From the IMG/VR virus record IMGVR_UViG_3300033066_000839: a stretch of 20,000 nt of DNA; one strand, written 5' to 3'. Positions 985 through 19,809 of this stretch are shown in pieces. Within the stretch, counting starts at the first letter, position 1; the number at the start of each line of letters is the position of its first letter. This DNA comes from an uncultured virus (IMG/VR IMGVR_UViG_3300033066_000839) (Duplodnaviria > Heunggongvirae > Uroviricota > Caudoviricetes). The notes beneath the pieces are model-generated. The model saw only the letters and a program-made list of their open reading frames with translations. It did not search any database and was not told where the DNA came from. The translations under genes were made by a program, and so were the position numbers.

Positions 985-1281
985 ATGAGCGACAAACTTA
1001 AAATTGATTTGAATGTGCCCTTAATGGGTCTTGATGGCAAGAAAGCACAGGGAGATGATGATGCTACATTAGGTAAATATCTTGGAGTTGCATTGGTGCA
1101 AAGCACTAAGGGAGACCCTATAAAGATGTATATATGGGCACAAAAACTATTTAAGGGAGAGGCTATTGAAGTAGATAAAAGCGATAAGAAAACAATTGAA
1201 AATTTTGTAAATGAGCATGATTCTTTGACGAATTTGGCTAAGGCGCAGATATTGGAGATTTTTTACGCTGTAAAGGGTTAA
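985..1281 (+). CDS. conserved phage hypothetical protein (possible fibre chaperone)
   Basis: 98 aa ORF with an A-rich leader and an 'IDLNVPLMGLDGK' N-terminus; tightly packed. Confidence 0.6.
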   Translation: MSDKLKIDLNVPLMGLDGKKAQGDDDATLGKYLGVALVQSTKGDPIKMYIWAQKLFKGEAIEVDKSDKKTIENFVNEHDSLTNLAKAQILEIFYAVKG

Positions 1282-5156: not shown

Positions 5157-5235
5157 TATGTTTGTGGTGTTGGCAGCCCCCGCATAGAATATGTAACCTC
5201 CCAACATCATTAACCATCCTTCGGGGTGGTTTTTG
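5157..5235 (+). ncRNA. candidate small RNA unit 1 (promoter box, stem-loop, terminator)
   Basis: TATGTTTG at 5157-5164; TGGTGTTGG...CCAACATCA stem; then a terminator hairpin. Confidence 0.35.
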
Positions 5236-5238
5236 TTT
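5211..5238 (+). terminator. intrinsic terminator, copy 1 of a 28-bp direct repeat
   Basis: AACCATCC-TTCG-GGGTGGTT plus T-tract; identical to 5465-5492. Confidence 0.8.
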
Positions 5239-5435: not shown

Positions 5436-5488
5436 TATATTTGTACCCCAACTGCGTCAACATATAACCATCCTTCGGGGTGGTTTTT
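5436..5488 (+). ncRNA. candidate small RNA unit 2 (promoter box then terminator)
   Basis: TATATTTG at 5436-5443, about 20 nt, then a terminator hairpin. Confidence 0.35.
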
Positions 5489-5492
5489 GTTT
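5465..5492 (+). terminator. intrinsic terminator, copy 2 of a 28-bp direct repeat
   Basis: TAACCATCCTTCGGGGTGGTTTTTGTTT, identical to 5211-5238. Confidence 0.8.
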
Positions 5493-7719: not shown

Positions 7720-9006
7720 CTATATTTCTACTTCGTTTTTTGCCAACAGTGTTTTAGTATAAAGGTTTATAAAGTGTTGCTGGAAAGCTCTCGTTTCATC
7801 GCTAAGACCAGTATTGAAATGTTCGTTCTCTTCGATTAGCATAGCTACAATATCAAACAATGAGCTGTTAAGCATTGTATTACAAATATATATCTTCTTT
7901 TCGTCAAGATTTACACATGCCAAACGTGTCTTATCCCCGAAATACCCAAACACAAATTTCAGGTCTGGATGAAGTAAATAGTCGCATTGCTCCAATATAA
8001 CAAGTGCTTGCTTTACTCTGTTGTCTAAGATAGGGTCGTAGTGTTCTAGGAACTCATTAGCCTTACTGGCAACCCGAAGCGCACCGATGCCATCAAACTG
8101 CTTTGTAAGGGCTTTATAAACCACTTTAGGAACAACTATATTCTTAACAGTATCAATAGATATTCCCCTTGCTTCAGCATCCTCAACTGCTTTATTATGG
8201 ATTATTTTGGCATTACCAATAACATTAACCCATGACTTACTCCATTTTTCAATCATCCAGTCAAAATCCATAGTGCCATCCTTACCCTCAAAATGCTCTT
8301 CTGTAACATTCTCCAGAAAATATTGTGCGACCTTTTCATTTGCCTGACTAAGCGCTTCGCAGATAGGTAGCGTTAGCGTATTGTTGTATTCACGCAGCTC
8401 GTTAATTTTAGCGTTCTTAATATCATAAGAGAATAGCGATTTATGTGTATCACTTTCATATATCAAAACGCCTTGTTTGTAGAATCTTAACTTTTGCCCG
8501 CCAGCATATATTTTATGGGTAGCGGTCTCATGTAGCGGCTCTTGGTTATGTATAAAGTATTTACCCCAGTTATCCAGCACCTCTTGTATCTGGCTGTCAA
8601 TCTGAATATAAAACACGGTGTTACCTTCATGTGGCACTGGGTTATCAGTTATTTCATAGTGCGCTTCACCTTCGTCAAGAGCATTACACCACAGCTCACG
8701 TATTACCATCCATGCTTTCCAGTCAGAGCCCATCTTTGTGGTAATGCTGGTGCGGTTGCCGTTTATACAGATGATTTCAAATACCTCATCACGTATGGTC
8801 TCTTTCTCGATGTTTACTTTCACTAATTCATTACCGACAAATATCTTAAAGTCAAGATTATTACGGTACAGAAACGCTAAGGTATATTTCAACCCCGTAC
8901 CAAACTGCCCGATTTTGTATTGGTCTTTATCTTTAGTAGAACCTCCCATGAGTGCTACAAGGCGAATGTCAAGTAAACCTTTGTTGCTGATTGCTAAGTA
9001 TTTCAT
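7720..9006 (-). CDS. GHKL/HATPase_c-like ATPase with C-terminal zincin-like domain
   Basis: 'IGQFGTGLKY' (G2/ATP-lid) and 'RELWCNALDE' (N-box); C-terminal 'KIYI...LIEENEHFNTGLSDETRAFQ'. Confidence 0.7.
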   Translation of the reverse strand: MKYLAISNKGLLDIRLVALMGGSTKDKDQYKIGQFGTGLKYTLAFLYRNNLDFKIFVGNELVKVNIEKETIRDEVFEIICINGNRTSITTKMGSDWKAWMVIRELWCNALDEGEAHYEITDNPVPHEGNTVFYIQIDSQIQEVLDNWGKYFIHNQEPLHETATHKIYAGGQKLRFYKQGVLIYESDTHKSLFSYDIKNAKINELREYNNTLTLPICEALSQANEKVAQYFLENVTEEHFEGKDGTMDFDWMIEKWSKSWVNVIGNAKIIHNKAVEDAEARGISIDTVKNIVVPKVVYKALTKQFDGIGALRVASKANEFLEHYDPILDNRVKQALVILEQCDYLLHPDLKFVFGYFGDKTRLACVNLDEKKIYICNTMLNSSLFDIVAMLIEENEHFNTGLSDETRAFQQHFINLYTKTLLAKNEVEI

Positions 9007-9023
9007 ATGTGTAATTGATTTTG

Positions 9024-9280
9024 TTATTCCCCAAGTAATTGACTTAAAAATTTAGTTTTAGTCCTTTGCGATTCAGCATAAGCACCTAAATGAAAACATG
9101 CATATGCTAATTCGTTGGGGTTATTAAGTAACTTTGATATTGCCGCAATAGCATCTGGATAGGTTTTAGTTTCATCATGGCATTTTTCTATGATTGCATC
9201 TATTTCCGTTTCTCTTTCATTGCTTATGCGAAGCTATCATTATCAATTTCAACTGCTGTTACAAGTATGTTATTATTCAT
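9024..9280 (-). pseudogene. frameshifted small gene (about 85 aa if one base is restored near 9229)
   Basis: ATG at 9280 with the shared leader gives MNNNILVTAVEIDNDSFA*. A shifted frame with no start of its own continues ISNERETEIDAIIEKCHDETKTYPDAIAAISKLLNNPNELAYACFHLGAYAESQRTKTKFLSQLLGE* to TAA at 9024. Confidence 0.6.
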
Positions 9281-9293
9281 GTGTAATTGGTTT

Positions 9294-9542
9294 TTATTTA
9301 GAGTTAGAGATATTGAACAATGTATCAGCAAAAACGCTTTCACCTCCGATAGTTACCATAACTGTAGGCTCTAGGAAACTTTCTACAATCTCATATCCAG
9401 TAATTTTTTGAGGAGCGCTGTACATTACATTGCCGTTTCCGTCAATCTCCGTAAGAAGCCTGCTTTGTGCCATTTTACCAGTTAGAAATTGCCCGTATCT
9501 TTCCGCCGCTAGAGCTTCTGGGCTTGCTGAATAGTGTACCAT
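9294..9542 (-). CDS. hypothetical early protein
   Basis: 82 aa; first gene after the repeated promoter cassette. Confidence 0.65.
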   Translation of the reverse strand: MVHYSASPEALAAERYGQFLTGKMAQSRLLTEIDGNGNVMYSAPQKITGYEIVESFLEPTVMVTIGGESVFADTLFNISNSK

Positions 9543-9611
9543 CTTGCTTAATGTTTAAGTGTTAAAATTGATTTGTTGACACAAAGATAGTGTTATGTTT
9601 TGAAATAACAA
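9538..9611 (-). promoter_or_regulatory. promoter/operator/leader cassette, copy 1
   Basis: On the - strand TTG-N19-TATCTTTG (box at 9582-9589); inverted repeat TGTTAT-N8-ATAACA at 9591-9610; near-identical to 16705-16777. Confidence 0.85.
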
Positions 9612-12117: not shown

Positions 12118-12315
12118 TTATTCGTCTGGTGTAACAATTACTTCAACCTGTCCTAATATTATAAATTCTTCATACTTTTCCTCCCACCATTTCATAAGGG
12201 TATGTAATTGCAGTGTGCCTAAAACATACTCACGCTCATAAAGCATTCCGTCAACCATTAATTTAATGGTAGCGGCAAATGGCTTGGTAACAAATGGAGG
12301 CTTTCGAGGTTTCAC
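12118..12315 (-). CDS. hypothetical protein
   Basis: 65 aa, 4-nt overlap with the HNH gene. Confidence 0.5.
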   Translation of the reverse strand: MKPRKPPFVTKPFAATIKLMVDGMLYEREYVLGTLQLHTLMKWWEEKYEEFIILGQVEVIVTPDE

Positions 12316-12665
12316 AATTTATAATGTGGGTTTGAATTATAAGATTCAGTCCTATGTATTATTGATGTGGTATTTCGATGCATCGTTACACATAAATCAT
12401 AATCTATGGTCATGCCTCTGAATTTTAAAGCACCGTTTATTCTTATTGGGTGCAAATTCTTAAATAGAAAATCTTTAAATTCCAGTAACGTCATATTTGA
12501 TTTCATTGAATTACAAAGCTGACATGCTAATAGTATGTTTTGCTTTTCATTGCCACCACCTTTAGAGGTAGGCAGTAGGTGTTCTTTTGTTGGCTTTAAT
12601 ATCACATTATCATGGTAATCACCAAAACACCTACTACAATAACAGCATTTTTTATTCTTACCCAT
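12312..12665 (-). CDS. HNH endonuclease
   Basis: CxYC...TKEHLLPTSKGGGN...NILLACQLCNSMK. Confidence 0.9.
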   Translation of the reverse strand: MGKNKKCCYCSRCFGDYHDNVILKPTKEHLLPTSKGGGNEKQNILLACQLCNSMKSNMTLLEFKDFLFKNLHPIRINGALKFRGMTIDYDLCVTMHRNTTSIIHRTESYNSNPHYKL

Positions 12666-14256: not shown

Positions 14257-14570
14257 TGTTTGATAGTTTGTGTTTCCAGTTGTTCTATAAGCTGCTCGGC
14301 AGTGATACCAGAATATTCAATGGTTTTTCTTTTAGGAGCGAACATTGCTTGGTCTAGCCACCATATGTTAGTCTTCATACTCCCACTATTATTACACAGA
14401 CCACATTTAATAAAGCCCCCATCTGTTCTTTTGCCAATGTCTATCAATATAGTTTTACAATTACATTCTGGAGATTGAAGTGCTTTAATTACAAATTCAT
14501 CACCAACTTTTATGCCTGTTCGTGCGTGTGGTAAAATAGCTACAATCTCCTGTCCTATGTGCCAATTCAT
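14253..14570 (-). CDS. small Cys-containing (CxC...CxxC) protein
   Basis: 105 aa; ECNC and KCGLC motifs. Confidence 0.65.
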   Translation of the reverse strand: MNWHIGQEIVAILPHARTGIKVGDEFVIKALQSPECNCKTILIDIGKRTDGGFIKCGLCNNSGSMKTNIWWLDQAMFAPKRKTIEYSGITAEQLIEQLETQTIKQ

Positions 14571-15898
14571 ATTCCTTCTGGTTTTATTATAAATAAATAT
14601 GCTTTTAATTCACGCGAATGAGAATATCCTTTTTTAATTTCTTGGGCTGTAGCATAGTATTTAGTAGTATACTGGTTAAACCCCGCCCAGTTTGATTGAT
14701 TGGCTATTTTAAATTTTGTTTTATCAAACGTACAGGTATATTGTAAAACGTGATTTCCCGTTGGATTACCCCGCCTAGTTAACTCTAAAACAGTAACACC
14801 AATACGGTCACTTGTACCCCATACGTTATTTGTATCTTGAGTAGGTATAATAACCACCTTGCCATCTATTATGCCTCCATTTTTAACATGAGACAATAAT
14901 TTATCAGATAGCTCTGTGTCTAATTTTGAAGATGAAAGCAAGGTATATTTTTTATCTTTTTTCAATAATTCAACTTGTTTCTTGCATTGCTCCACCTTTT
15001 CAGCAAATGTAAGTTCTGCCTTTTTGCCGTTCATCTCCATAAGAATAGCAGCATATAATTCAGTGATTTGGTTTATTATTTTTTGTGATTGAGAGCTGGA
15101 TATGTCATTACCTAATTTTATATATTTAGGCATAAGGTCCTGTATGACTTTTTTCCCAGTCATTTCGATGAATACAGATGAGTCCAAAACCTTGTCTGGA
15201 TTATCCTTTCTGAACTTATAAACAAGAGCGCCAAAAAAGACATTAACCATACCGCCACAATTATTTATGGTTTCTAAAAAACGCATGTCTGATATAAACA
15301 TATCGTTTGTTATGCGCTGTTTTATTGCCTCTGCTTTTTTACTGCTATTTACGCTTAAACCATAATCATATTTTGTTTTTTCACCGTACAAATACCCATC
15401 AAACGCACCTGAAAAATTAAGAATATTGATGTTGTACACTGTTTTCATTAAAAGAGCAAATCCTCTGTCGTGGTATGAGCCGCTACCGTAAAACTTCCAG
15501 TTATTCAAGCGTACCATCAAAGTAAGTAATTCAGAATCCGTAAAGTCCTCATATCGGTATACCCTGACGTTAACATTCATGTCGGGTGCATTGTACCAGA
15601 GCAACCTTCTAAACCCGTCCAGTATTAGATGCTGACCGTCTTTTTCAAGTAAAAACAGGTTTTGATATTCGTAAATTTCGGCAGGCGGTTTTTTTTCTAT
15701 GTTTTTATCTTCATCCCTTTTACCCCTGTCGTAAATAATATCGGTATTGTATTTGTTATAGTCAATACCCATGCCGACAAGTACACTTTTAAGAGATTTG
15801 GATAGGCTCTGTGCGTTGTACTGTTTGAGCTCATAATATTTGCCAGAAAGAGCATCATGAAATCGCATTGATTGTGAAGACTTAGTATTTGTATTCAT
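14567..15898 (-). CDS. protein with N-terminal ParB/Srx-like domain
   Basis: 'LFLLEKDGQHLILDGFRRL' matches the ParB-like [IL]DGxxR motif; the remainder is unassigned. Confidence 0.6.
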   Translation of the reverse strand: MNTNTKSSQSMRFHDALSGKYYELKQYNAQSLSKSLKSVLVGMGIDYNKYNTDIIYDRGKRDEDKNIEKKPPAEIYEYQNLFLLEKDGQHLILDGFRRLLWYNAPDMNVNVRVYRYEDFTDSELLTLMVRLNNWKFYGSGSYHDRGFALLMKTVYNINILNFSGAFDGYLYGEKTKYDYGLSVNSSKKAEAIKQRITNDMFISDMRFLETINNCGGMVNVFFGALVYKFRKDNPDKVLDSSVFIEMTGKKVIQDLMPKYIKLGNDISSSQSQKIINQITELYAAILMEMNGKKAELTFAEKVEQCKKQVELLKKDKKYTLLSSSKLDTELSDKLLSHVKNGGIIDGKVVIIPTQDTNNVWGTSDRIGVTVLELTRRGNPTGNHVLQYTCTFDKTKFKIANQSNWAGFNQYTTKYYATAQEIKKGYSHSRELKAYLFIIKPEGI

Positions 15899-15974
15899 TC
15901 TTAATGTTGTTTGTAATTGATGTTGTAAATATAGTAAGCGCCTACGCCCGAAGGTTTCGGCGCATTAAGCCATT

Positions 15975-16709
15975 TTATTTAACCAGATACCTGTAATGTG
16001 GTTGCTGAACAGGACCACTTGCAATGATAGTCCATGCTTTCGTTATGCCGTTCTCATGGTGAATATAGCATTCAAAGTTTACACCTACCCTTGCAGAATG
16101 AATAGTGAACTTGCTATTAGCGGTTATCCCCTTATCATTCAATCTTTTCGCCAACCTGATAATACTTTCCGTGTAATGTTCTTCAGCTTGCTTAACCTTG
16201 CTGGCTTTGTATTTATCTAAGCCCATTCTTACAACCTCCCTAGCAACAATTTTAGCTCTCTCCATTTCTTGCGCAGCAACTAACCTGTGGTTGTACTCAT
16301 GGTAGTTCGGGTTACCATATTTGTTTACAACGGTATACTCAATCCTGTATGCTTTCAACCATTCCGCTTCCGTGCGCTGCATAAGTTTTTCACAGTAGGC
16401 AAACCTTTCATCGGCATACTCTTTAGTTTTTTCTATGAAAGCAGCTTTTAAATCAGATGTGTGTTTGTACAACTCTTCTATTAATTTATCATTACGTTCT
16501 ACTTTCTCTACACTACCATCAATAGCTTCATGAACAAAGTTTGACTTTACAATCGCATTAGCAATGTTCTTAGCCTGTAAGCGCTCACTGTAAGAATAGC
16601 GTGAGTTATTAGCAATATTAATTGAAACCTTACCATCATCTTTCAAAGTCACTTTGCCATAGACAGTACGCCCAGAAGTAGTTTTGTGAGAGAAGTGTGC
16701 TGTAACCAT
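15975..16709 (-). CDS. conserved early phage hypothetical protein
   Basis: 244 aa; C-terminal 'TIIASGPVQQPHYRYLVK'; first gene after cassette copy 2. Confidence 0.7.
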   Translation of the reverse strand: MVTAHFSHKTTSGRTVYGKVTLKDDGKVSINIANNSRYSYSERLQAKNIANAIVKSNFVHEAIDGSVEKVERNDKLIEELYKHTSDLKAAFIEKTKEYADERFAYCEKLMQRTEAEWLKAYRIEYTVVNKYGNPNYHEYNHRLVAAQEMERAKIVAREVVRMGLDKYKASKVKQAEEHYTESIIRLAKRLNDKGITANSKFTIHSARVGVNFECYIHHENGITKAWTIIASGPVQQPHYRYLVK

Positions 16710-16777
16710 TTTGCTTAATGTTTAGTGTTAAAATTGATTTGTTGATACAAAGATAGTGTTATGTTTTGAAATAACAA
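16705..16777 (-). promoter_or_regulatory. promoter/operator/leader cassette, copy 2
   Basis: TATCTTTG box at 16748-16755, TTG 19 nt upstream, inverted repeat at 16757-16776; near-identical to 9538-9611. Confidence 0.85.
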
Positions 16778-16804
16778 GTGTTTTGCAAAAAATATTTTTC
16801 AGGC

Positions 16805-16832
16805 AAAAAAAAGGAGCTGAAAACAGCCCCTT
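16805..16832 (-). terminator. intrinsic terminator
   Basis: On the - strand AAGGGGCTG-TTTT-CAGCTCCTT followed by a T-run. Confidence 0.85.
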
Positions 16833-16885
16833 AACAAATCAATTACACCTATGAGAAAAGCAGAGAACCTGCTACTAAGAATGTA
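16805..16885 (-). ncRNA. candidate trans-acting antisense small RNA (or lysin mRNA 3' UTR)
   Basis: Box TATCTTCG (16890-16897), hairpin AGCAG-GTTCT-CTGCT, unpaired TTTCTCATAGGTGTAATTGATTTGTT complementary to several gene leaders, then the terminator. Confidence 0.55.
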
Positions 16886-16900
16886 GACACGAAGATACAC

Positions 16901-17413
16901 CTATTTTCTGAAATACCTATACACGCTGTATATAATCCCTGAAATAACTACCACGCCAAGTACACCTATTCCACCAGTTATTAACACCTGTTCGTATTTC
17001 GGGTATTTGGATAGCCAGTTTTTGATACCAGCCAGATACGTACTTTCTTTATCGCCGTAGTACCCAGCCTTTTTAAGAGCGGCGGCATATGTTTCTGGGG
17101 TGTTAAGGTCGGCTATTTTCAGTTTACCCTCATTCTGCCTGCGTTGCAGCCACGCTATAAGCTCTTTAGTGCTATCTTCTACACTGGCATACTTAGCCGC
17201 AGGGAATCCGTTATCGGCAGTCCTGCCAGCCTGCGGAAGCTGATATTTAGAGCCAGATACGTACATGTACCCAAATGCATTATTACCCTCTTTGAATATA
17301 GATGATGTAAAGTCGCCCGTTTCATGCCTTGCGTCCGCAACAATGATGTTAGCCAATGTATCGTTAATGCCAGCGCCTTTGGCAGTATTGTATATTAATT
17401 GCCCGTAGTCCAT
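16901..17413 (-). CDS. GH73/glucosaminidase-type peptidoglycan hydrolase with C-terminal TM
   Basis: 'ARHETG', 'NNAFG', 'KYASVEDS', 'LKKAGYY' motifs; C-terminal TM GGIGVLGVVVISGIIYSVYRYFRK; likely start MDYG at 17413. Confidence 0.85.
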   Translation of the reverse strand: MDYGQLIYNTAKGAGINDTLANIIVADARHETGDFTSSIFKEGNNAFGYMYVSGSKYQLPQAGRTADNGFPAAKYASVEDSTKELIAWLQRRQNEGKLKIADLNTPETYAAALKKAGYYGDKESTYLAGIKNWLSKYPKYEQVLITGGIGVLGVVVISGIIYSVYRYFRK

Positions 17414-17417
17414 GTGG

Positions 17418-17425
17418 CAAAGATA
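17418..17425 (-). promoter_or_regulatory. Bacteroidota-type -7 box immediately before the lysin ATG
   Basis: TATCTTTG-CCAC-ATG on the - strand. Confidence 0.6.
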
Positions 17426-18897: not shown

Positions 18898-19809
18898 TTA
18901 AAACTTATTCCTCTTTAAAATAAACAGACATTGAAAGTTACAAGTAGGACCAAAGTCCTCTGTCAACCATTCGCCTCTACCTGCAACAGAACCAGCAAAT
19001 TCCATTGTCCAATGCAGCTTATCAGGCGGCGGATAAGTTGTTATAAAATCACCGTGAAGCATAGGGAATATTCGGGTTTGTGTTCTACTCATGTTTTGTT
19101 GGCTAAACCCATAAGCCCTTACACCATCTGTTTGCATAACTACTTTAGGGTAGCCTTGCGCTTCAAAACAGCTATCCGTATTTACTTCTATGTACAAATT
19201 GCCGTAAGCATATCCAGTGGTAACTCTTGGTTTTGGTTGAAGTAAATTAACCATTGGTAATGGTTTTGCTTGACCAACAGAAACGGCACCCGTTGCACTA
19301 TCTAATTGGAAATCTGCCTGTAATGGACAAGGAACACTAAAATATATGTCAGCACCGTACCCTAATGTTCTTGAGCCGAAACTATAAGAGTTTAAATTCC
19401 ACGCTCTATATCCAGTTGTTGTGTGGTGTGCTATAATAGAACTTTCATCAGGAAACTCCCCAAATGAAACTACTTCAAATGCTGTATCTTTAAAATACAT
19501 ATGCATAGCCCACCCTTCAATGGCAAAACTATCTATTACACCAGATACACCGTGACCTAAATCTGTTGCATAATGCCAAGTATTTATACCTGAACTACTG
19601 CGAGTTGGGTATATAATAGCTGCGACCTCATAAAGGCTATCATTCTTTTTAAAATGTATCTTGTTTGCACTATCCAGTTTACGCTGAAGGGTATCTACCT
19701 TTTTTTGTATATAGTCTTGTGTACAACTGTCAATAGCACAGCATACGGGTTGTGCCGATGACGACACATAAATCAATGTTAGTAATAATGCAATAATTAG
19801 TTTTTTCAT
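18898..19809 (-). CDS. secreted/periplasmic hypothetical protein
   Basis: Sec signal peptide MKKLIIALLLTLIYVSSSA|Q, a short coiled coil and a beta-rich body. Confidence 0.7.
   Translation of the reverse strand: MKKLIIALLLTLIYVSSSAQPVCCAIDSCTQDYIQKKVDTLQRKLDSANKIHFKKNDSLYEVAAIIYPTRSSSGINTWHYATDLGHGVSGVIDSFAIEGWAMHMYFKDTAFEVVSFGEFPDESSIIAHHTTTGYRAWNLNSYSFGSRTLGYGADIYFSVPCPLQADFQLDSATGAVSVGQAKPLPMVNLLQPKPRVTTGYAYGNLYIEVNTDSCFEAQGYPKVVMQTDGVRAYGFSQQNMSRTQTRIFPMLHGDFITTYPPPDKLHWTMEFAGSVAGRGEWLTEDFGPTCNFQCLFILKRNKF

What the first reader, a model, noticed from the sequence alone, without database searches (positions are those of the whole stretch)
16805..16897. Candidate phage sRNA complementary to a shared leader/start-codon motif of several early genes
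Seen: the - strand here reads promoter-like TATCTTCG, a short hairpin, then UUUCUCAUAGGUGUAAUUGAUUUGUU, then a strong terminator. The unpaired stretch is the reverse complement of the leaders of distant - strand genes. It matches 18/19 nt across the AUG of the GHKL gene (9003-9021) and 12/13 nt just before the AUG at 9280 (9281-9293). It also matches 12/12 nt in both promoter-cassette leaders (9566-9577, 16732-16743) and 10/10 nt in the ParB-like gene leader (15912-15921). Inference: a single trans-acting RNA, or the lysin mRNA 3' UTR, could block translation of a whole early regulon and act as an early-to-late switch. Bacteroidota generally lack SD-dependent initiation, so the shared leader motif would serve as the address label.
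Basis: partly seen in the sequence, partly recalled or inferred. Interest (0 to 1): 0.85.

Follow-up and report, generated by a model that had tools for sequence, protein, structure and literature searches.

The report
Lysin mRNA tail mirrors next leader
The untranslated tail of a phage lysin gene carries a stretch complementary to the start region of the following genes, and distant relatives keep such a match with quite different sequences, so it is probably an RNA brake on translation and not a chance repeat.

Summary
Every coordinate and match in the finding is correct. Between the lysin stop (16901) and a strong terminator (16811-16832) the - strand holds a -7-like box, a 5-bp hairpin and a 26-nt stretch (16833-16858). 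Its complement recurs in leaders of - strand genes: 5 of the 7 best non-self matches in the window lie in leaders.

By duplex energy only three targets stand out: the 428-aa gene start (-21.3 kcal/mol) and the two promoter-cassette leaders (-16 to -18). A broad regulon is not supported.

The new result is comparative. In 5 of 9 testable terminator junctions from distant lysin relatives, the tail just 5' of the terminator is complementary to the leader or start codon of the next gene. Each locus uses a different sequence (at most 2.7% of shuffles reach each score; cognate scores 23-28, non-cognate mean 12.8). Pairing with the lysin's own start: 0 of 5.

Folded read-through RNAs close the terminator-promoter spacer with this helix.

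Best reading: an anti-leader element that masks the next unit's start. I favour action in cis on read-through transcripts, like T4 gene e (0.4), over a trans-acting 3'UTR sRNA (0.28). No RNA data exist.

The parts
16901..17413 (-). Lysin gene (glucosaminidase domain, hydrophobic C-terminal segment); probable start ATG 17413
   Evidence: Pfam PF01832, E 5.5e-11. Homologues start at MDYGQ. A TATCTTTG box lies at 17425-17418, 4 nt before the ATG.
16890..16897 (-). TATCTTCG, a -7-like box just after the lysin stop; identical in L004
   Evidence: It differs from TAnnTTTG at position 7, and no TTTG lies 19-21 nt upstream (read).
16859..16873 (-). Small hairpin: 5-bp stem with GTTCT loop
   Evidence: L004 has a hairpin at the same relative place with a different stem and the same GTTCT centre.
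16833..16858 (-). Arm 1, the anti-leader stretch: complementary to the leader of the next gene, to the second cassette leader and to the start of gene 7720-9006
   Evidence: (I12). Positions 16844-16833 are about 0.99 unpaired in the terminated RNA.
16805..16832 (-). Intrinsic terminator: 9-pair stem, 4-nt loop, T run
16721..16777 (-). Promoter cassette copy 1 (57-nt repeat) with TATCTTTG box at 16755-16748
   Evidence: (D1). Contigs of run X1 join this stretch to several other flanks.
16725..16744 (-). Arm 2: the 5' end of the next gene's leader (12 nt, a 3-nt bulge, then 4 nt) that pairs with arm 1
   Evidence: duplex -16.1 kcal/mol at positions -35..-14; pair probability about 1 in the read-through fold.
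15975..16709 (-). Next gene, 244 aa, no family assigned
   Evidence: One relative at 40% identity in a viral contig.
9555..9611 (-). Promoter cassette copy 2, with the leader match at 9566-9577, driving gene 9294-9542
   Evidence: -17.8 kcal/mol. No terminator and no arm 1 lie upstream of it.
9003..9021 (-). Start region of the 428-aa gene (7720-9006): 18/19 complementary to arm 1 and covers the ATG
   Evidence: I12; -21.3 kcal/mol, positions -20..+4.
9281..9293 (-). Leader of an 18-codon ORF (ATG 9282-9280), 12/13 match; energy within background
15912..15921 (-). Leader of the 443-aa gene (14567-15898), 10/10 match; energy within background

Best explanation
The stretch 16833-16858 is the upstream arm of a long-range RNA helix. 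Its downstream arm lies in the leader of the next transcription unit, so the two arms bracket the lysin terminator and the next promoter. When transcription runs through the terminator, the tail pairs with the leader. The following gene then has its ribosome-landing region shut on read-through RNA and is translated freely only from RNA started at its own promoter, which lacks arm 1. This is the logic of T4 genes e, soc, 49 and I-TevI. Shown here: the complementarity, its covariation in relatives, and the predicted helix. Inferred: that read-through RNA exists and that the helix lowers translation. The same arm, exposed on terminated lysin mRNA, could also pair in trans; that is the main rival.
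For: (1) Covariation. 5 of 9 testable terminator junctions in lysin relatives have a tail-to-next-leader match that few dinucleotide shuffles of the tail reach: window 0/300, L004 1/300, L012 8/300, L021 2/300; L013 second junction 0.017. The arms differ in sequence at every locus. (2) Specificity. Cognate scores are 24, 23, 23 and 28, against 30 non-cognate pairs with mean 12.8, sd 2.5 and maximum 19. An independent scan of 22 terminator-to-gene junctions put the window, L004 and L013 at or below 0.4% of non-cognate pairs. (3) The partner is always the immediately following gene. Pairing with the lysin's own start was found in 0 of 5 loci. (4) Folding stop-to-start read-through RNAs puts the arm1:arm2 helix in the minimum-energy structure, with pair probabilities of about 0.9-1.0, in the window, L004, L012 and L021. 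(5) Arm 2 covers or abuts the start codon in L004 (-10..+7), L012 (-23..-4), L021 (-18..+1) and L013 (about -15..-5). (6) The geometry of 5' arm, then promoter, then 3' arm over the start region is the one described for T4 e, soc, 49 and I-TevI (PMC3014915, passages read).
Against: No RNA data: no RNA run holds the sequence. The terminators look strong, so read-through may be rare. In the window itself arm 2 lies at -35..-14 and does not cover the ATG. 4 of 9 junctions show no significant match: L006 0.263 and L009 0.173; L007 0.56 and L023 0.063. The cis model does not explain three things: the box and hairpin shared with L004, the better match (18/19, -21.3 kcal/mol) to a start codon 7.8 kb away, and the threefold ATAGGTGTA repeat. 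I noticed some positive loci by eye before testing them. All relatives are distant (lysin 40-54% identical), and the n is small.
Confidence: 0.4

Rival explanations
1. Trans-acting anti-leader RNA. The terminated lysin mRNA, or an approximately 80-nt RNA started at the TATCTTCG box, exposes arm 1 next to the terminator hairpin. It pairs in trans with the 5' end of cassette-driven mRNAs and with the start region of the 428-aa gene, lowering their translation or stability once lysin RNA accumulates.
For: The layout is that of an sRNA: a 5' hairpin, a single-stranded stretch (16844-16833 about 0.99 unpaired), then a terminator. TATCTTCG and a hairpin with a GTTCT centre recur in L004 although the lysins are only 45% identical. 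The best duplex, -21.3 kcal/mol over -20..+4, is with a gene 7.8 kb away, and 2 of 500 shuffles reach it. The cassette leader occurs in several genomic contexts in run X1, so one RNA could meet several mRNAs. TATCTTCA is the only -7-like box I saw before the next gene of L012 (output, read by eye). UTR-derived sRNAs exist in Bacteroides (PMC7366714, passages).
Against: In 5 of 5 positive loci the partner is the adjacent gene, which a free trans-actor does not need. L012, L021 and L013 have tails of only 25-30 nt, with no room for an own promoter. The box departs from TAnnTTTG at a conserved T and lacks a -33 TTTG. The summed energy over the five best start regions is reached by 9.4% of shuffles. 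Part of arm 1 (CAUAGGUGU) is predicted to be paired within the short RNA. No transcript has been seen.
Confidence: 0.28
2. A relic with no present function: arm 1 is a flipped fragment of a leader of the cassette or 428-aa-gene type, left by recombination among the repeated promoter cassettes.
For: The + strand of arm 1 reads like a leader plus ATG of the 428-aa-gene type, and the leaders form one family. The cassettes are repeated and joined to several flanks. An earlier scan note (e1-5976236) reached this reading for another phage.
Against: It does not explain why four other distant loci have their own, different arm pairs at the same junction. No promoter remnant lies next to arm 1 on the + strand: a terminator sits there instead (output).
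Confidence: 0.12
3. A DNA-level element: the 12-bp inverted repeat (16732-16743 / 16833-16844) brackets a promoter. It would be an invertible promoter (inverton) or a pair of protein-binding sites that loop the DNA.
For: Inverted repeats flank a segment of about 90-110 bp whose promoter reads out across one arm, in the window and in L004, L012 and L021. This is the architecture of Bacteroides invertible promoters (PMC8748976 and PMC4747536, search listing only).
Against: The arms share no core sequence between loci, and they tolerate bulges and mismatches. No recombinase family was found among 40 window ORFs scanned against Pfam. No strand-switch joint was seen, though only contigs could be laid.
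Confidence: 0.08
4. Coding explanations: either a + strand micro-ORF starting at ATG 16851, or a C-terminal extension of the lysin by reading through its TAG.
For: ATG 16851 opens an 11-codon ORF behind a leader-like sequence. The lysin frame stays open for 33 codons after its TAG.
Against: The micro-ORF peptides of the window and L004 differ in length (11 and 18 aa) and in sequence beyond M-R/Q-K. No TAnnTTTG box lies on the + strand between 16679 and 18130. The nucleotides shared with L004 fall in different codon phases, and L004 meets another in-frame TAG after 14 codons. TAG ends 5 of 38 window genes. The homologues end at the same C-terminus.
Confidence: 0.03

Closest known systems
T4 genes e (lysozyme), soc, 49 and I-TevI: start regions masked in long transcripts and open in transcripts from a proximal promoter (PMC3014915, passages read)
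   Same: A 5' arm lies upstream of a promoter and a 3' arm lies over the start region. Only RNA that begins upstream can form the helix, and the helix sits at a boundary between transcription classes.
   Different: Here the loop is about 90-130 nt and holds a full intrinsic terminator plus the promoter. The masked gene is the one after the lysin, not the lysin. The host type lacks Shine-Dalgarno pairing. In the window arm 2 stops 14 nt before the ATG. Nothing has been measured.
3'UTR-derived small RNAs that share the mRNA's terminator, with or without an own promoter (OppZ/CarZ, PMC7398697, search listing only; Bacteroides UTR-derived candidates, PMC7366714, passages; DapZ and CpxQ recalled)
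   Same: A single-stranded pairing stretch sits directly 5' of the mRNA's terminator hairpin. A possible internal promoter lies at the end of the coding sequence. Complementarity is to start regions.
   Different: No transcript or processing site is known. The partner is always the adjacent downstream unit. Bacteroidota are said to lack Hfq (recalled).
Lambda sib retroregulation of int (recalled, no paper read)
   Same: A structure that forms only when transcription passes a terminator changes the fate of the RNA.
   Different: In sib the extended stem is continuous with the terminator hairpin and acts on the upstream gene through RNase III. Here the second arm lies about 70-110 nt further on, in the next leader.
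icaR-type pairing of an mRNA's 3'UTR with its own 5'UTR (recalled; named as closest known in earlier scan notes)
   Same: A 3'UTR stretch is complementary to a ribosome-landing region.
   Different: Tested here and not met: the lysin tail does not match the lysin's own start in 0 of 5 loci. It matches the next gene's start instead.
T4 RegB and RegA: shut-off of many early mRNAs through their start regions (RegB: PMC3014915 passages; RegA recalled)
   Same: This would be the functional analogue if the trans reading holds: one factor addresses several messages by a shared leader motif.
   Different: Those factors are proteins. Here only 3 start regions exceed background energy.
Mobile promoter/stem-loop cassettes (PeSL) of T4-type phages (recalled)
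   Same: A repeated promoter cassette (57 nt, two copies in the window, more flanks in run X1) lies next to a terminator.
   Different: No sequence relation was tested. The arms, not the cassette, are the point here.

Membership tests
Intrinsic (Rho-independent) terminator | G+C-rich stem-loop followed by a U run | tested here: met
   9-pair stem with 5 G-C pairs and a 4-nt loop, followed by a T run, at 16832-16805.
Bacteroidota primary-sigma promoter | -7 box TAnnTTTG | tested here: not met
   The box at 16897-16890 is TATCTTCG, with C at position 7. The cassette and lysin promoters have TATCTTTG. Consensus taken from PMC7366714 (passage).
Bacteroidota primary-sigma promoter | -33 TTTG about 19-21 nt upstream | tested here: not met
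   No TTTG at that spacing before 16897 (read from the context). The paper says this motif is not always found.
3'UTR-derived sRNA | Shares the parental mRNA's terminator; its 5' end is a start site or a processing site in the 3' region of the gene | not testable with these tools
   The shared terminator is evident from the sequence. The 5' end needs RNA data, and no RNA holder was listed. Definition from PMC7366714 methods (passage).
3'UTR-derived sRNA | Target pairing kept in relatives | tested here: met
   5 of 9 junctions, each with a different sequence. The same data fit cis pairing equally well.
T4 gene e-type start-region masking | 5' arm upstream of the proximal promoter, so promoter-started RNA lacks it | tested here: met
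   Arm 1 lies 5' of the terminator, and the TATCTTTG box lies between the arms. The same order holds in L004, L012 and L021.
T4 gene e-type start-region masking | 3' arm sequesters the ribosome-binding region or the start codon | tested here: inconclusive
   Met in L004, L012, L021 and L013. In the window the helix spans -35..-14 and further pairs near the ATG reach only 0.3-0.5 probability.
T4 gene e-type start-region masking | Long transcripts exist and are poorly translated | not testable with these tools
   No RNA run holds the sequence.
Invertible promoter (inverton) | Inverted repeats flanking a promoter | tested here: met
   A 12/12 repeat at 16732-16743 and 16833-16844 brackets the TATCTTTG box.
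Invertible promoter (inverton) | Both orientations present in the population; a site-specific recombinase | tested here: inconclusive
   No strand-switch joints, but only contigs could be laid. No recombinase among 40 ORFs scanned against Pfam. The window covers only 20 kb.
Any Rfam family | Covariance-model match | tested here: not met
   No match at gathering scores. At E up to 10 the only hit was an unrelated one at 19526-19624.
icaR-type own 5'-3' UTR pairing | The tail is complementary to the same gene's start region | tested here: not met
   0 of 5 loci; 33-92% of shuffles reach the observed score.

The most novel reading that the evidence does not exclude
A phage of an SD-less, Bacteroidota-type host makes an RNA counterpart of T4 RegA/RegB. 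The lysin mRNA tail, or a short RNA from its own weak promoter, accumulates late. It pairs in trans with the shared 5'-terminal tag of every cassette-driven message and with the start codon of the 428-aa gene, switching off a set of operons at once. The leader tag would serve as the address label in place of a Shine-Dalgarno sequence.
Probability: 0.25. Interest if true: 0.8.

Novelty: new variant of a known kind. Interest (0 to 1): 0.55.

Why it matters
Translation control in Bacteroidota and their phages is poorly understood, because the usual ribosome-binding signal is absent. Here a boundary between two phage transcription units is bracketed by arms that co-vary across very distant uncultured relatives. 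That gives a concrete test case for how such phages keep one unit's read-through from expressing the next, or how late RNA silences other messages: mutate one arm, then compensate in the other. It also suggests that terminator-promoter junctions in metagenomic phages should be screened for such arm pairs. Other notes of this scan report similar tail-to-leader matches in other phages (unchecked).

Tried and rejected
- **Phage and viral collections.**
  - No match in the phage collection by DNA or by protein.
  - No exact copy of the element or of the cassette in viral contigs.
  - Lysin searches of viral contigs gave nothing close or two distant loci without the layout.
  - A lysin search of species genomes gave none.
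- **Degenerate pattern built from the three motifs shared with L004.** It gave 10 hits in viral contigs and 47 in genome contigs. None has the hairpin plus the terminator, so all are chance.
- **Promoter motif of L009, L012 and L021.** It has no match in viral contigs.
- **Window genome.** No whole genome is held, so genome-wide enrichment of the motif could not be computed.
- **Sequencing runs.** No RNA holder was listed. Laid contigs showed only identical sequence or other cassette copies, so they gave no variant information for the element.
- **Rfam.** Nothing found.
- **RNAalifold on the window/L004 pair.** Uninformative, because MAFFT misaligns the two hairpins.
- **Other readings.** Own-start pairing rejected. 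The micro-ORF and the TAG read-through extension rejected.
- **Earlier notes.** Lookups for this genome and for this sequence returned nothing.
- **Junctions left out of the covariation test.**
  - L003, L010, L011, L014, L015, L022 and L024: too little downstream sequence.
  - L005: the contig ends after the terminator.
  - L008: identical to L007.
  - L002, L016, L019, L020, L025, L026 and the first junction of L013: no terminator found within 170 nt.
  - L017 and L018: no ORF of 50 aa or more within 300 nt.

Full report
**What is there**

The window looks like part of an uncultured phage. It is densely packed with short ORFs, mostly without families. Identified genes include a glucosaminidase-type lysin, an HNH endonuclease and a glycosyltransferase, and one PHROG of unknown function was hit.

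Genes run on the + strand up to about 5200 and on the - strand from 20000 down to about 5500. Leaders are A-rich (46% A in -20..-1), and 8 of 37 genes have an SD-like motif.

TATCTTTG boxes fit the Bacteroidota -7 consensus TAnnTTTG (PMC7366714, passage). They precede the lysin (17425-17418) and sit in both promoter cassettes (16755-16748 and 9589-9582); a fourth box (9626-9619) lies just upstream of cassette copy 2.

On the - strand, the lysin (probable start ATG 17413, stop 16903-16901) is followed by these features:
- TATCTTCG at 16897-16890
- a 5-bp hairpin at 16873-16859
- the 26-nt stretch at 16858-16833
- a strong terminator at 16832-16805

Next comes a 57-nt promoter cassette at 16721-16777, which has a second copy at 9555-9611. 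After it lies a 244-aa gene at 15975-16709.

**Checking the observation**

All five matches are real.
- The 12-mer occurs 3 times against 0.41 expected, and 1 of 200 shuffles reaches 3.
- Of the 7 best non-self ungapped matches on both strands, 5 lie in leaders of - strand genes.

By duplex energy the picture narrows.

| Target | Energy (kcal/mol) | Position |
|---|---|---|
| 428-aa gene start | -21.3 | -20..+4 |
| Cassette 2 leader | -17.8 | -36..-13 |
| Cassette 1 leader | -16.1 | -35..-14 |
| ORF at 9280 | -13.4 | -17..+6 |
| 443-aa gene | -12.6 | -29..-13 |

- The -21.3 value is reached by 2 of 500 shuffles on any of 37 start regions.
- The two cassette values sit at the edge of the background.
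- The last two values lie inside the background of 310 coding windows (mean -8.7, sd 2.4, minimum -17.3).
- The sum of the five best energies is reached by 9.4% of shuffles.

So the matches are real, but a broad regulon is not shown.

The labels 'GHKL' and 'ParB-like' have little or no support. Nothing shows that the target genes are early.

**Relatives**

The phage has no relatives in the phage collection. No whole genome is held for the window.

A protein search found lysin relatives. A scan of metagenome contigs with a 7-sequence alignment returned 25 loci at 29-54% identity.

One locus, L004 (45%), repeats the window's layout after the stop codon:
- the identical TATCTTCG
- a hairpin with a different stem and the same GTTCT centre
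- a stretch sharing CATAGGT
- a terminator

In L004 that stretch is an 11/11 complement of the start codon region of L004's own next gene. That is the best non-self match on both strands of the locus.

**Covariation test**

For each junction I compared the tail (stop codon to terminator) with the region from the terminator to ATG+15 of the next gene. The control was 300 dinucleotide shuffles of the tail.

| Junction | Fraction of shuffles reaching the score |
|---|---|
| Window | 0.000 |
| L004 | 0.003 |
| L021 | 0.007 |
| L012 | 0.027 |
| L009 | 0.173 |
| L006 | 0.263 |
| L013 (second junction) | 0.017 |
| L023 | 0.063 |
| L007 | 0.56 |

- L017 and L018 had no next ORF by my rule.
- That makes 5 of 9 positive, each with different arm sequences.
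- In a cross-table of the six loci, the four positive ones score 24, 23, 23 and 28 with their own partners (the two negative, L006 and L009, score 12 and 13). The 30 non-cognate pairs have mean 12.8, sd 2.5 and maximum 19.
- A separate, stricter terminator scan of all loci then held found 22 junctions. The window, L004 and L013 scored 22-24, at or below 0.4% of non-cognate pairs. The other 19 scored 9-16. L012 and L021 were not picked up by that rule.
- The tail does not match the lysin's own start in any of 5 loci.

Caveats: I saw some positives by eye before testing them, all relatives are distant, and some 'terminators' among the negatives are weak.

**Structure**

Read-through RNAs were folded from the stop codon to 25 nt past the next ATG. 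In the window, L004, L012 and L021 the arm1:arm2 helix is in the minimum-energy structure, with pair probabilities of about 0.9-1.0. The helix encloses the terminator and the promoter.

In the terminated RNA of the window, 16844-16833 is about 0.99 unpaired. CAUAGGUGU is partly paired with the 5' end.

**Interpretation**

The conserved feature is RNA-type complementarity between the lysin tail and the next unit's leader. The arms tolerate bulges and share no core sequence between loci.

Two mechanisms fit.

*Cis.* Read-through RNA folds shut over the next start region, and RNA from the proximal promoter lacks arm 1. This is the arrangement described for T4 e, soc, 49 and I-TevI (PMC3014915, passages).

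*Trans.* The exposed arm on terminated lysin RNA, or on a short RNA from the TATCTTCG box, pairs with other messages.

I favour cis (0.4) over trans (0.28) for three reasons:
- The partner is the adjacent gene in 5 of 5 positive loci.
- Three of those loci have tails too short for an own promoter.
- The intramolecular helix needs no further assumption.

The trans reading keeps weight for three reasons:
- The box and hairpin are shared with L004.
- The best duplex is with a start codon 7.8 kb away.
- The cassette leader occurs in several contexts in run X1.

One untested history would reconcile these. The 428-aa gene's leader could be the original neighbour, later separated by cassette-bounded insertions.

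**Other readings**
- A relic of a flipped cassette (0.12) does not explain the other loci.
- An inverton or looping operator (0.08) fits the geometry. It has no shared core, no recombinase among 40 ORFs scanned against Pfam and no joint in contigs; raw reads were not available.
- Coding readings (0.03) fail on comparison.

**Novelty and limits**

This is a new variant of known kinds: start-region masking, or a 3'UTR regulator. It sits in an SD-less phage-host setting, with a terminator inside the loop.

Papers: I read passages of PMC3014915 and PMC7366714. PMC7398697, PMC8748976 and PMC4747536 were seen only as search listings. Lambda sib, icaR, RegA, PeSL and the absence of Hfq are recalled.

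Searches for a described case were two term searches. I make no claim that none is in print. No supplements were opened.

Similar tail-to-leader notes exist for other phages in this scan. They are unchecked and are not counted as support.

Noticed in passing
window 17411-17425 (-): A TATCTTTG box ends 4 nt before the probable lysin start ATG 17413, the start that the homologues use. The lysin mRNA may therefore be leaderless or nearly so, and the lysin may be a single-gene unit from this box to the terminator at 16811.
   Followed up: partly
window 16705-16777 and 9555-9611: The 57-nt promoter cassette is joined to at least four further different flanks in contigs of run X1, and summed contig depth there is about five times that of its surroundings. 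It is a multi-copy module in this phage or its close kin. The pieces break at different points, either leader only or promoter only.
   Followed up: partly
window 9027-9293 (-): The ATG at 9282-9280, behind a leader of the shared type, opens only 18 codons. A 62-codon open frame without a start codon follows in another phase and ends at 9027. This looks like one gene of about 80 aa split by a frameshift: an error, decay or programmed. Four stops in a row lie in the second frame just before it opens.
   Followed up: partly
window 16844-16969 (-): ATAGGTGTA occurs exactly three times in the window, all on the - strand within 126 nt. One copy is in the lysin's hydrophobic tail coding region, one spans the stop codon, and one lies inside arm 1. 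The three are in different codon phases. Unexplained; it could be a protein-binding repeat.
   Followed up: partly
window 16799-16903 (-): The lysin frame stays open for 33 hydrophobic codons beyond its TAG, through the hairpin, arm 1 and the terminator. Comparison with L004 and the stop usage (TAA 23, TGA 10, TAG 5) speak against read-through or recoding.
   Followed up: yes
window 5211-5238 and 5465-5492 (+): Two identical 28-nt terminator hairpins lie 254 nt apart, where the + and - gene blocks converge, with small - strand ORFs between them.
   Followed up: no
window 1002-1011 (-): A sixth 10/10 copy of the leader motif lies on the - strand inside the 5' end of the + strand ORF 985-1281, so that gene's mRNA carries the same sense as arm 1 there. 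Probably chance.
   Followed up: no
L009 4600-4624, L012 4290-4313, L021 457-480: Three lysin relatives share a near-identical motif of about 24 nt with a small palindrome between the terminator and the next gene's -7-like box. It occurs once per locus and may be an operator.
   Followed up: partly
window 12312-12665 (-): An HNH endonuclease gene (Pfam E 6e-7) sits among small unknown ORFs in the long - strand array.
   Followed up: no
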